DNA from: Escherichia coli
GTDB lineage: Bacteria; Pseudomonadota; Gammaproteobacteria; Enterobacterales; Enterobacteriaceae
Reading direction: 5' to 3' (one strand)
Length of the DNA stretch: 64,000 nucleotides
NCBI RefSeq assembly: GCF_029227855.1
Contig: NZ_CP074356.1
Under the pieces are notes generated by a model that worked only from the letters and a program-made list of their open reading frames with translations, made no database searches and was not told the DNA's origin. Every line of letters begins with the position of its first letter. Position 1 is the first letter of the stretch. The position numbers and the translations under genes were made by a program. Of the stretch, positions 60,711-62,168 are shown piece by piece.

Positions 60711-62168
60711 CTATTTTTTAGCATTCGCATCCAGCGGGGCGGCATAACAGCTGTAAGAAAAACATTCGCTGGAATGATTGGCGATATCTTTAAAGTTGCT
60801 TTCAGCAACCCCCTCGAACATGAGTACCGTTCTGGACAACTCTCCGTTTTCATTTATATATGGAAAATCAAATTGTGTACTGAATCGCCATACATCTGTC
60901 TTTTCTGGCTCGCTGTTCACAGAGATACGTCGATGGAAGACTCCTCCTGAAAACGTGCGCCAGAACAATTGTTGATCAAAATCTTGTAATATCGCACACT
61001 TGGATGCTATTTGACGTAGTAAACCTGCATACCGTGGACTGCCATTACGAGCAACATTATACAAACCCTGACTAAAAGCATCAAACAAACAATAGATATG
61101 ATCACTAGTGAAAAAAGGTCTTAATTTTTTTTGTTCTTCATCGCTGTAATCCAGGAGCATCTCATTGATTTCTTCCGGTGAGAATTTTAAGACAAAATTA
61201 TCCTCAGGATTTGTTTCTTTCTTGTTTTTTTCACTATTCTTCTCCTCAATGGTCTTCGCATTTTGTTTCGCAATTTTTTTCGCATTTTCTTCCTCAGTTT
61301 TTTTCGCAATTTTTTCCGCAATTTTTTCCCGAGTTTTTGGTTTTAGACTAACACCATCGATGTCAACCGGTGTTGTTTTCAGATCTCTCTGCGCGTCTTT
61401 CAAATTTGTCTTATAGAGATCGGGCACTTTATCGGCAGATAAGTATCCGGATGAAGAAATCTGGTGTGTACGCATGGGGGGCTGTTCACAAAGCATCGAG
61501 GCTATATCGTCTTTAAACTCTTTTACATTAAAGTTATCGGCATTAACCTTCCCTGTTATAAACCCCGCATCGGCAATTTTCTTCTCTAATTGTTTTGTAC
61601 GTTTAGAATAATAAGCGTTGTTATCATAAAACTTTTCAAGAAGGGCCCACTCCTCAAGTTGCCTTATGTGATTTTTCAACTGTTGATGATCTATTTTATA
61701 TTCATGTGTACTAGAATCATTTTGGTTGCAGGGGTTACAGATTTTTAAGCATAATTTTCCATCATAATTATTATCTATGGTATCAGTGAAAATATAGGAC
61801 ACTTCAATACTCTGCCCGTTCTTATCAGTCATCTCATATGACCATTGCCCCGTTCGTTTCGCATTCTTAATGAGTTCGATGGACTCTGCAGGACAACCAT
61901 GAAGAATGGGCAGAATTTTATCAGGATGCTTAATGAGTAAAATTATTATATTTACAATGTTTGAAAAGAAATCTTTGCTATTTTTTATTTCATCGATTTT
62001 TTCCGCTGAAATGTTTACTAAGTTTTCATTTCCGGAAATGAAAAGCAATTTGCCATGGGGGCTTTTTTTAAATTGTTCTTCTGTTTTAGAAAAGACATCC
62101 TCTTTAAAAGGTGGCAACTCACTACCAGTAATAAATGGTTTCAATAAATTCGAATTTGAAATTGTCAT
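60711..62168 (-). CDS. Hypothetical protein of unknown function in an AT-rich accessory insert
   Basis: 485-aa ORF with good RBS (GGAG 7 nt upstream); markedly AT-rich by eye; charged Lys/Glu-rich low-complexity segment (KIAEKIAKKTEEENAKKIAKQNAKTIEEKNSEKNKKE) from imperfect tandem DNA repeats; locus absent from K-12 acpH-malZ as I recall it; no family recognised. Confidence 0.7.
   Translation of the reverse strand: MTISNSNLLKPFITGSELPPFKEDVFSKTEEQFKKSPHGKLLFISGNENLVNISAEKIDEIKNSKDFFSNIVNIIILLIKHPDKILPILHGCPAESIELIKNAKRTGQWSYEMTDKNGQSIEVSYIFTDTIDNNYDGKLCLKICNPCNQNDSSTHEYKIDHQQLKNHIRQLEEWALLEKFYDNNAYYSKRTKQLEKKIADAGFITGKVNADNFNVKEFKDDIASMLCEQPPMRTHQISSSGYLSADKVPDLYKTNLKDAQRDLKTTPVDIDGVSLKPKTREKIAEKIAKKTEEENAKKIAKQNAKTIEEKNSEKNKKETNPEDNFVLKFSPEEINEMLLDYSDEEQKKLRPFFTSDHIYCLFDAFSQGLYNVARNGSPRYAGLLRQIASKCAILQDFDQQLFWRTFSGGVFHRRISVNSEPEKTDVWRFSTQFDFPYINENGELSRTVLMFEGVAESNFKDIANHSSECFSYSCYAAPLDANAKK

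What the first reader, a model, noticed from the sequence alone, without database searches (positions are those of the whole stretch)
61250..61340. Imperfect tandem DNA repeats inside the unknown ORF encode a charged low-complexity linker
On the plus strand the segment reads ...CTTCGCATTTTGTTTCGCAATTTTTTTCGCATTTTCTTCCTCAGTTTTTTTCGCAATTTTTTCCGCAATTTTTTCCC..., that is, repeated TTTCGCAATTTTT-like units, which on the coding (minus) strand give KIAEKIAKK...AKKIAKQNAK. Such repeats are prone to slipped-strand variation and could generate length variants of the linker.
Basis: seen in the sequence. Interest (0 to 1): 0.25.

Follow-up and report, generated by a model that had tools for sequence, protein, structure and literature searches.

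The report
Variable 12-bp repeat in E. coli orphan gene
A short 12-base repeat inside an uncharacterised E. coli gene really does gain and lose whole units between strains, so a charged spacer in the protein varies in length; this is an ordinary, well-known kind of variation in a gene of unknown function.

Summary
Window 61255-61327 holds an imperfect 12-bp tandem array (6.1 copies, 80% match). With degenerate units it runs about 61215-61334. It is the only strong tandem repeat in the 64-kb window and lies far above codon-shuffle expectation. It sits in a 485-aa minus-strand ORF (60711-62168). That ORF is an AT-rich, single-gene insertion between acpH and malZ, present in 1126 of 5426 complete E. 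coli genomes (O157:H7 Sakai ECs_0454). No homologue was found outside Escherichia/Shigella and no family match.

Across about 126 alleles the N-terminal part is always 275 aa and the C-terminal part 163 aa (124 of 126). The repeat-encoded segment is 31 to 63 aa in steps of 4 aa. At least nine indel differences (at least eight distinct changes) separate alleles that are otherwise identical or differ by one residue.

It is not a fast on/off switch. The unit is in frame, and about 310 O157/O55-type and 281 window-type genomes show no indel.

The closest analogue is the tolA intragenic repeat. Verdict: a new member of a known kind, of modest interest.

The parts
60711..62168 (-). 485-aa orphan ORF (homologue of O157:H7 Sakai ECs_0454), annotated 'hypothetical protein'
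   Evidence: ORF list. RefSeq annotation in homologous loci. GGAG Shine-Dalgarno at 62176-62179, 7 nt before the ATG. No nonsense among at least 180 mutations where 7.7 are expected.
61255..61327 (-). Core of the imperfect 12-bp tandem array (plus-strand unit TTCGCAATTTTT; coding-strand unit A[AT]TGCG[AG]AAAAA)
   Evidence: TRF period 12, 6.1 copies, 80% match. Shuffle tests. Motif spacing.
61215..61334 (-). Whole array in codon register, about 10 units of 12 nt: TREK IAEK IAKK TEEE NAKK IAKQ NAKT IEEK NSEK NKKE
   Evidence: Unit-by-unit decomposition of the window and 8 other alleles. All indels between alleles map here.
61203..61343 (-). Charged segment, aa 276-322: 30% K, 21% E, net charge +5. 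It is the variable-length spacer between the conserved N- and C-terminal parts.
   Evidence: Composition. Segment length 31-63 aa among alleles, while the flanks are length-invariant. AF2 helix 277-304 and 307-315 at pLDDT about 60-77.
61344..62168 (-). N-terminal part (aa 1-275), length-invariant in 126 of 126 alleles
   Evidence: No Pfam match.
60714..61202 (-). C-terminal part (aa 323-485). The last ~90 residues are almost invariant among alleles.
   Evidence: No Pfam match. AF2 pLDDT 47.
61125..61132 (-). A8 run (T8 on the plus strand) just downstream of the array; site of -1 frameshifts in two allele backgrounds
   Evidence: L011 and L012 are both A8->A7 and annotated 'frameshifted'.
61225..61231 (-). 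A7 run inside the array tail; site of a +1 frameshift in strains 95-3192 and 99-3311
   Evidence: L007 against L006 alignment. The same 514-bp span occurs in two genomes.
60691..62353 (.). AT-rich (about 32-40% GC) 1663-bp insertion between the stop codons of acpH and malZ. K-12 has 4 bp here.
   Evidence: Junction comparison with MG1655. Composition profile. Present in 1126 of 5426 genomes.

Best explanation
This is an in-frame, imperfect 12-bp variable-number tandem repeat inside a real but uncharacterised protein-coding gene. The gene is restricted to Escherichia/Shigella.

Each unit encodes a tetrapeptide, (I/N/T)-A-(E/K)-K. Misalignment between units removes or adds whole units or blocks of three units (12 or 36 nt). 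The misalignment could arise by replication slippage or by unequal recombination between short direct repeats such as GAAAAAATTGCGAAA.

Because the unit is a multiple of three, the reading frame is kept. The only product-level change is the length of a lysine/glutamate/alanine-rich, probably helical, spacer. That spacer separates a 275-aa N-terminal part from a 163-aa C-terminal part. It ranges from 31 to 63 aa among alleles, which would be about 48 Å of difference if fully helical.

Shown: the repeat, its coding register, its polymorphism, the confinement of indels to it, recurrent independent events, and stability within clones.

Inferred: the mutational mechanism, the helical spacer role, and any functional consequence of length.
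For: - The repeat is real and unique in the window.
- Coding register and unit structure are set out.
- A systematic sample of 60 of the 1126 carrier genomes gave spans of 501 bp (17), 489 (28), 513 (7), 465 (1) and 549 (1). It also gave +/-1 frameshift spans (4) and a repeat-less allele (2). A second sample added a 477-bp span.
- Among 126 protein alleles the N part is 275 aa in all and the C part 163 aa in 124. The repeat segment takes the values 31, 35, 39, 43, 47, 51, 55 and 63 aa.
- Nine indel differences (at least eight distinct changes) separate alleles with 0-1 aa difference elsewhere: window to L001 (-36 nt, flanked by a perfect ~15-nt direct repeat); L002 to P0033 (-36 nt); three different single-unit deletions and two different single-unit duplications in the L006 background; a 36-nt block difference between P0119 and L005; and P0004 to P0034.
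- Gene reality: a Shine-Dalgarno sequence; the ORF is intact in about 93% of sampled carriers; no nonsense among at least 180 mutations where 7.7 are expected, P = 4e-4.
- Helix prediction over residues 277-315 has the second-best confidence in the model, after the 331-350 helices.
- A precedent for the same mechanism and the same protein-level consequence in E. coli is tolA (PMC3477136).
Against: - The array is stable on clonal time scales. About 310 genomes are at least 99% identical to the O157/O55-type 489-bp segment and 281 to the window-type segment, which excludes a 12-bp indel in them. The rate is therefore not high, and 'prone to slippage' is relative.
- Units are only about 80% alike, which lowers slippage efficiency.
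- The spacer role is not demonstrated. AF2 confidence for the whole protein is poor (pLDDT 42 and 47).
- The segment is not a canonical ER/K single helix.
- dN/dS of 0.5-1.4 leaves open that the protein is under weak constraint, so length variants could be simply neutral.
Confidence: 0.8

Rival explanations
1. The periodicity is a by-product of biased composition. A-rich Lys/Glu codons in an AT-rich gene would look periodic without any true tandem duplication, so no special indel behaviour is expected.
For: The segment is 55% A on the coding strand and 51% K+E. The whole gene is 32-40% GC.
Against: Shuffling only the 47 linker codons, which keeps this composition, never reaches the observed lag-12 identity (82 of 129 against 52.5 +/- 5.2; 0 of 5000). 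Indels between alleles are exact whole units or three-unit blocks with direct-repeat breakpoints.
Confidence: 0.02
2. It is a phase-variable (contingency) locus. Repeat or homopolymer slippage would switch the gene on and off at high frequency within a clone.
For: The array is studded with A6-A8 runs. Frameshifted alleles occur in about 4 of 60 sampled carriers. They map to the A8 run at 61125-61132, in two different allele backgrounds, and to the A7 run at 61225-61231.
Against: The 12-nt unit cannot change frame. Runs of 7-8 A are short for an efficient switch. About 310 O157/O55-type and 281 window-type genomes are at least 99% identical over the segment. Single-base homopolymer differences in long-read assemblies are a common error, which is general knowledge and was not tested here.
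Confidence: 0.05
3. The length classes were not produced by local slippage. They would be old allelic types exchanged between lineages by homologous recombination, so the array itself would be mutationally quiet.
For: The locus is recombinationally mosaic. L004 and L008 share an identical acpH but carry very different ORF alleles, and dS in the ORF is lower than in the flanking acpH. One allele class (L008) has the whole segment replaced.
Against: Pairs with zero amino-acid differences across the other 438 residues differ by different single units at different positions of the array. These are most simply explained as de novo events on one background. Three distinct deletions and two distinct duplications are seen on the L006 background alone.
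Confidence: 0.1
4. The array acts at the DNA level. Phased T/A tracts every 12 bp would form a curved or H-NS-binding element that silences this AT-rich island, and the coding consequence would be incidental.
For: A5-A7 tracts recur every 12 bp in a 33% GC stretch. AT-rich acquired genes in E. coli are typically H-NS bound, which is general knowledge and was not tested here.
Against: A 12-bp phase is off the ~10.5-bp helical repeat, so bending would not add up. The L008 allele class lacks the array while keeping the gene. There are no binding data, and the scan found no excess of promoter-like sites.
Confidence: 0.03

Closest known systems
Intragenic tandem repeat of E. coli tolA (domain II); Zhou, Michiels & Aertsen 2012, PMC3477136
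   Same: Both are imperfect, in-frame short repeats inside an E. coli gene (tolA: 13 units of 15/18 bp). Both encode a Lys/Ala-rich segment of a long alpha-helical connector between two domains. In both, copy number differs among natural isolates (tolA: 8-16 among 234), and natural deletions match slippage or recombination between units.
   Different: The unit here is 12 bp (a tetrapeptide) and there are fewer units. The host protein is an orphan with no membrane anchor and no known function, and it is not homologous to TolA (no Pfam hit). No rate, genetic dependence or phenotype has been measured. TolA is a core gene, whereas this gene is in only about 21% of genomes.
VNTR loci used for MLVA typing of E. 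coli and Shigella
   Same: It is a short-unit tandem array with discrete copy-number alleles among strains.
   Different: Variation here separates lineages, not isolates within a clone: O157:H7 genomes share one length. It would therefore have low resolution as a typing marker. Whether this locus is already in any MLVA panel was not established. Two literature searches on its identifiers (locus tags and accessions, including a guessed EDL933 tag) found nothing.
Simple-sequence contingency loci (phase variation) of Neisseria, Haemophilus and Campylobacter
   Same: Both rely on repeat-mediated misalignment as the mutational mechanism.
   Different: Those use homopolymers or 2-5-nt units that shift the frame or alter promoter spacing, at rates of 1e-2 to 1e-5. 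This unit is 12 nt, always in frame, imperfect, and stable across hundreds of clonal genomes.
ER/K single alpha-helix (SAH) spacers
   Same: Both are charged, Pro/Gly-poor, predicted-helical segments between two folded parts, whose length would set the distance between domains.
   Different: Only 44-53% of residues are charged, the net charge is positive (+3 to +6), and opposite-charge i/i+4 pairs are no more frequent than like-charge pairs. Ile/Ala occupy fixed positions of the 4-residue unit. It does not meet the usual SAH composition.

Membership tests
In-frame intragenic variable-number tandem repeat (coding VNTR) | Head-to-tail repetition above chance | tested here: met
   TRF score 90-127. 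0 of 2000 whole-ORF and 0 of 5000 linker-only shuffles reach the observed lag-12 identity.
In-frame intragenic variable-number tandem repeat (coding VNTR) | Unit length a multiple of 3 and located inside a translated ORF | tested here: met
   12-nt unit in register with codons of ORF 60711-62168. Translation itself is inferred from ORF maintenance and the Shine-Dalgarno sequence; no expression data are available.
In-frame intragenic variable-number tandem repeat (coding VNTR) | Copy number differs among strains, with indels confined to the array | tested here: met
   Segment of 31-63 aa in steps of 4; flanks length-invariant.
In-frame intragenic variable-number tandem repeat (coding VNTR) | Recurrent independent expansions and contractions | tested here: met
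   Nine indel differences (at least eight distinct changes) between alleles with 0-1 aa difference elsewhere. Direct-repeat breakpoints.
In-frame intragenic variable-number tandem repeat (coding VNTR) | Measurable instability in a clonal culture | not testable with these tools
   Needs a fluctuation assay or deep amplicon sequencing. Genome data show stability across about 310 O157/O55-type genomes.
Phase-variable contingency locus | Repeat changes switch the reading frame or promoter on and off | tested here: not met
   The 12-nt unit never changes frame. Only the adjacent A7/A8 runs give rare frameshifts, which may be assembly errors.
Phase-variable contingency locus | High-frequency variation within a clone | tested here: not met
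   310 and 281 genomes are at least 99% identical to their allele over 489 and 501 bp.
ER/K single alpha-helix (SAH) domain | Very high E+K+R content with dense i to i+4 opposite-charge pairs | tested here: not met
   44-53% charged. Opposite-charge i+4 pairs number 4-9 against 5-10 like-charge pairs.
ER/K single alpha-helix (SAH) domain | Isolated stable helix | tested here: inconclusive
   AF2 helix 277-304 and 307-315 at pLDDT about 60-77, in a model with mean pLDDT 42. CD or NMR is needed.
TolA (homology) | Sequence similarity to TolA domains | tested here: not met
   No Pfam, NCBIfam or PDB match of any kind to the ORF or its halves. The resemblance is by analogy only.
Any described protein family, defence system or phage protein | Significant profile match | tested here: not met
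   Pfam hits are only sub-threshold, on the low-complexity segment. Only weak sub-threshold hits were found in PADLOC (Cas7e, E 0.061, on the low-complexity segment) and PHROGs (phrog_31618, unknown function, E 0.0059), and none in NCBIfam or the PDB. phmmer against 1.84 billion representatives found one full-length cluster plus fragments, all but one (66%) at least 80% identical. No phage or true plasmid copy was found.

The most novel reading that the evidence does not exclude
The orphan protein may be a fast-evolving factor that interacts with a host or a phage. The evidence is dN/dS of about 0.5-1.4, an AT-rich single-gene island, an N-terminus rich in Ser/Thr/Asn, and presence in O157:H7 and several extraintestinal lineages. 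On this reading the tetrapeptide array would act as a tunable molecular ruler. Selection, not drift, would maintain several spacer lengths (31-63 aa, plus a repeat-less allele class), because spacer length would set the reach or geometry between the N- and C-terminal parts.
Probability: 0.1. Interest if true: 0.55.

Novelty: new member of a known kind. Interest (0 to 1): 0.28.

Why it matters
This is a clean natural example of an in-frame coding repeat whose copy number has changed repeatedly. It sits in a gene carried by about one fifth of E. coli genomes, including O157:H7, and nobody appears to have studied that gene. In practice it gives a lineage-level length marker at a fixed chromosomal site between acpH and malZ. 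It also identifies a part of an orphan protein that tolerates insertions, which is a convenient handle for working out what the protein does. It does not change any general understanding, because the same behaviour is documented for tolA.

Tried and rejected
- **Family and homology searches.** Pfam, NCBIfam, PADLOC, PHROGs and PDB sequence searches were run on the whole protein. Pfam was also run on each half and on the repeat-less allele. Nothing was usable. The only weak hits (Cas_CT1975/Cas7e, QRICH1, DUF3700) lie on the low-complexity segment, fall below their cut-offs and are rejected as compositional.
- **Exhaustive phmmer.** No distant relatives were found in 1.84 billion representatives.
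- **Phage and plasmid copies.** tblastn against phages found none. The only two 'plasmid' hits are 4.9-Mb records, evidently chromosomes.
- **Structure.** AlphaFold2 on the full protein with 16 alleles gave pLDDT 42, and on the C-terminal part gave 47. Both are too poor, so no fold search was run, because matches would be meaningless.
- **RNA families.** An Rfam scan of 60500-62500 found nothing.
- **Literature.** Searches for ECs0454, a guessed EDL933 tag, and protein accessions found nothing relevant.
- **Overlapping ORFs.** The antisense F-rich ORF (61165-61416, +) and the out-of-frame K/R-rich ORF (61187-61321, -) were considered. They are rejected as by-products of the repeat.
- **ER/K single helix.** This was considered and rejected on composition.
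- **Mobile-element origin.** No terminal repeats or target duplication were seen at the insert junctions.

Full report
**Where the window lies.** The right end of the window is E. coli chromosome: tgt (57637-58764, -), queA (58820-59890, -), acpH (60052-60690, +), a 485-aa ORF (60711-62168, -) and malZ (62354-63922, -). A 1.8-kb query around the ORF is 100% identical to a human E. coli isolate. The flanks match 5424 of 5426 complete E. coli genomes, but the ORF itself is present in only 1126. In K-12 MG1655 the convergent stop codons of acpH and malZ are 4 bp apart. In the window they are 1663 bp apart (60691-62353), and that insert is 32-40% GC against 50-56% in the flanks. I saw no terminal repeats or target duplication at the junctions. 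In O157:H7 Sakai the gene is ECs_0454, annotated 'hypothetical protein'.

- Tandem Repeats Finder reports a 12-bp period, 6.1 copies, 80% matches and no indels at 61255-61327. Higher-order periods of 24, 36 and 48 bp extend over 61224-61338.
- It is the only tandem array scoring 60 or more in the 64-kb window.
- Five of the 17 matches to TTCGCAATTTTT with at most 2 mismatches lie at exact 12-bp spacing inside it.
- Lag-12 identity is 57 of 72 against 30.9 +/- 2.3 in whole-ORF codon shuffles (0 of 2000).
- It also exceeds shuffles of the 47 linker codons alone, which keep the K/E/A-rich composition: 82 of 129 against 52.5 +/- 5.2 (0 of 5000).

**Anatomy.** On the coding (minus) strand the unit is A[AT]TGCG[AG]AAAAA. 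In register with codons, the window allele reads TREK IAEK IAKK TEEE NAKK IAKQ NAKT IEEK NSEK NKKE, at window 61334 down to 61215. This is a tetrapeptide repeat, (I/N/T)-A-(E/K)-K. The surrounding segment (aa 276-322) is 30% Lys and 21% Glu, with net charge +5 and only two Pro.

**Is the ORF a gene?**

- There is a GGAG 7 nt upstream of the ATG.
- Nine intact alleles differ by at least 180 mutations in the two flanking parts without a single nonsense change. 7.7 would be expected from the observed transition/transversion mix, giving P = 4e-4. The caveat is that these alleles were chosen as intact.
- In a systematic sample of 60 carriers, 54 have an intact frame.
- The protein evolves fast. Pairwise dN/dS is 0.5-1.4, and substitutions are spread almost evenly over codon positions.
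- It has no usable match in Pfam, NCBIfam, PADLOC, PHROGs or the PDB.
- phmmer against 1.84 billion representative proteins finds only one full-length cluster plus fragments, all but one (66%) at least 80% identical.
- Named sources are all E. coli, Shigella dysenteriae or Escherichia sp..
- There is no phage copy, and the two 'plasmid' hits are 4.9-Mb records.
- AlphaFold2 with the shallow alignments available gives mean pLDDT 42 for the full protein and 47 for the C-terminal part, so I ran no fold search.

The ORF is therefore a genuine but orphan gene with a lineage-restricted distribution and weak constraint.

**Does repeat number vary?** Yes.

- A 501-bp query centred on the array matched spans of the following sizes in an evenly spaced sample of 60 of the 1126 carriers: 501 bp (17), 489 (28), 513 (7), 465 (1), 549 (1), 500/488/514 (4, frameshifted), and a partial match (2).
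- A second sample with the O157 allele added a 477-bp span.
- Fetched loci encode proteins of 461, 473, 477, 481, 485, 489 and 501 aa.
- The 120 best database representatives have lengths of 466-493 aa.
- In 126 full-length alleles the part before GVSL is 275 aa in all, and the part from DNF onwards is 163 aa in 124. The segment between them takes the values 31, 35, 39, 43, 47, 51, 55 and 63 aa, always in steps of 4 aa = one 12-nt unit.
- Unit-by-unit DNA comparison shows whole-unit events. L001 lacks three units (36 nt) present in the window, between two copies of GAAAAAATTGCGAAA. L002 lacks one unit. L003 and L006 have one more. L005 has a 36-nt, three-unit block repeated three times, and P0119 has one block fewer.

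**Recurrence and rate.** Pairs of alleles with zero or one amino-acid difference in the other 438 residues nevertheless differ in array length. These pairs are listed below.

- Window and L001.
- L002 and P0033.
- Three different single-unit deletions (P0030, P0037, P0054) on the L006 background.
- Two different single-unit duplications (P0092, P0099) on the L006 background.
- P0119 and L005.
- P0004 and P0034.

That makes nine indel differences (at least eight distinct changes), which shows that array changes are frequent relative to point substitutions. On the other hand, 310 genomes are at least 99% identical to the 489-bp O157/O55-type segment and 281 to the window-type segment. That level of identity excludes a 12-bp indel. 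The array is thus polymorphic between lineages but stable within clones. It is not a hypermutable switch.

**Other changes at the locus.**

- The -1 frameshifts in L011 (window-like allele) and L012 (O157-like allele) are both A8 to A7, at window 61125-61132.
- The +1 frameshift in L007 is A7 to A8, at 61225-61231.
- These frameshifts could be real pseudogenisation or homopolymer assembly errors. The L007 type is shared by two strains.
- In several WCHEC-type strains IS1 sits at 61637-61645, with a 9-bp duplication.
- About 3% of carriers (32 genomes in the 80-90% band) carry an allele (L008) whose segment is a shorter, non-repetitive sequence, TRRHLADIIHVKCMREKNYTTDQGFELPE. It keeps only faint traces of the unit (A-[ED]-I-I, EKN).

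**Most likely mechanism.** Misalignment between imperfect 12-nt units deletes or duplicates whole units or three-unit blocks. The process could be replication slippage or unequal recombination; sequence alone cannot separate them, and in tolA contractions were RecA-dependent (PMC3477136). Because the unit is four codons, the frame is always kept and only the length of the K/E/A-rich segment changes.

AlphaFold2 places helices at 277-304 and 307-315, with the second-highest confidence in the model after the 331-350 helices (pLDDT about 60-77). If the segment is helical, one unit adds about 6 Å, and the observed range of 31-63 aa spans about 48 Å (inference; one search gives the lengths).

Three things support a spacer role: the segment tolerates indels, it is wholly replaced in one allele class, and both flanks are length-invariant. 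This remains inference. The segment is not a canonical ER/K single helix. It is 44-53% charged, and opposite-charge i/i+4 pairs are no more common than like-charge pairs.

**Comparison with what is known.** The closest analogue is the intragenic repeat of E. coli tolA. That repeat has 13 imperfect units of 15/18 bp, encoding a Lys/Ala-rich part of the long helical domain II. It shows 8-16 copies among 234 isolates, contraction frequencies up to 6.9e-5, and stress phenotypes that depend on copy number (PMC3477136).

The present array works like that one, but it is not homologous to TolA. It has a 12-bp unit and sits in an accessory orphan gene. It fails the defining features of a contingency locus: it is in frame and stable in clones. 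It is best filed as a new member of the known class of in-frame coding VNTRs.

**Verdict.** Novelty is low: this is a new member of a known kind. Interest is modest, at about 0.28. The residual interest lies in the orphan gene itself. It is AT-rich, has dN/dS near 1, is found in a fifth of E. coli genomes including O157:H7, and has never been described in the literature I could search.

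Noticed in passing
window 61125-61132 (A8 on the coding strand); L011, L012: The same A8->A7 frameshift occurs in two different allele backgrounds, one window-like and one O157-like. This is either a recurrent homopolymer mutation or an assembly error.
   Followed up: partly
L008 (NZ_CP104629) 955-2340; about 32 of 1126 carriers: One allele class replaces the repeat segment with a shorter non-repetitive sequence and has a more divergent region at aa 323-395. It may be a pre-expansion or a recombinant form of the gene.
   Followed up: partly
window 60052-60690 (acpH) against 60711-62168: Synonymous divergence of acpH between these strains is high (dS 0.10-0.26), while dS in the orphan gene is lower (0.02-0.07 for most pairs) and its dN is about 10 times higher. 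L004 and L008 share an identical acpH but carry very different ORF alleles. The locus looks recombinationally mosaic.
   Followed up: partly
window 61637-61645; L013 (NZ_CP028589) and hits H2-H5: An IS1 insertion with a 9-bp target duplication interrupts the N-terminal part of the gene in several clinical strains.
   Followed up: yes
window 62275-62320 (- strand): There is a strong 11-bp-stem hairpin (CAGCCCTGACA...TGTCAGGGCTG) followed by AATTTGTT, just downstream of the malZ stop and inside the insert. It is a possible malZ terminator that K-12 lacks. The intergenic RNA folds with z = -4.2.
   Followed up: partly
window 60714-60980 (aa ~395-485): The last ~90 residues of the orphan protein are almost invariant across alleles, whereas aa 323-395 are variable. 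Constraint is concentrated at the extreme C-terminus.
   Followed up: no
window 61165-61416 (+) and 61187-61321 (-): The repeat creates a Phe-rich antisense ORF of 83 aa and an out-of-frame MRKKLRKKLRKK... ORF of 44 aa. Both look like by-products of the repeat.
   Followed up: no
PLSDB records NZ_CP134663.1 and NZ_CP141089.1: Two 'plasmid' records that carry the gene are 4.9 Mb long, so they are evidently chromosomes filed as plasmids.
   Followed up: no
(nine alleles of the ORF): The transition:transversion ratio among segregating sites is about 1:1 (79:83), which is unusually low for within-species E. coli variation.
   Followed up: no
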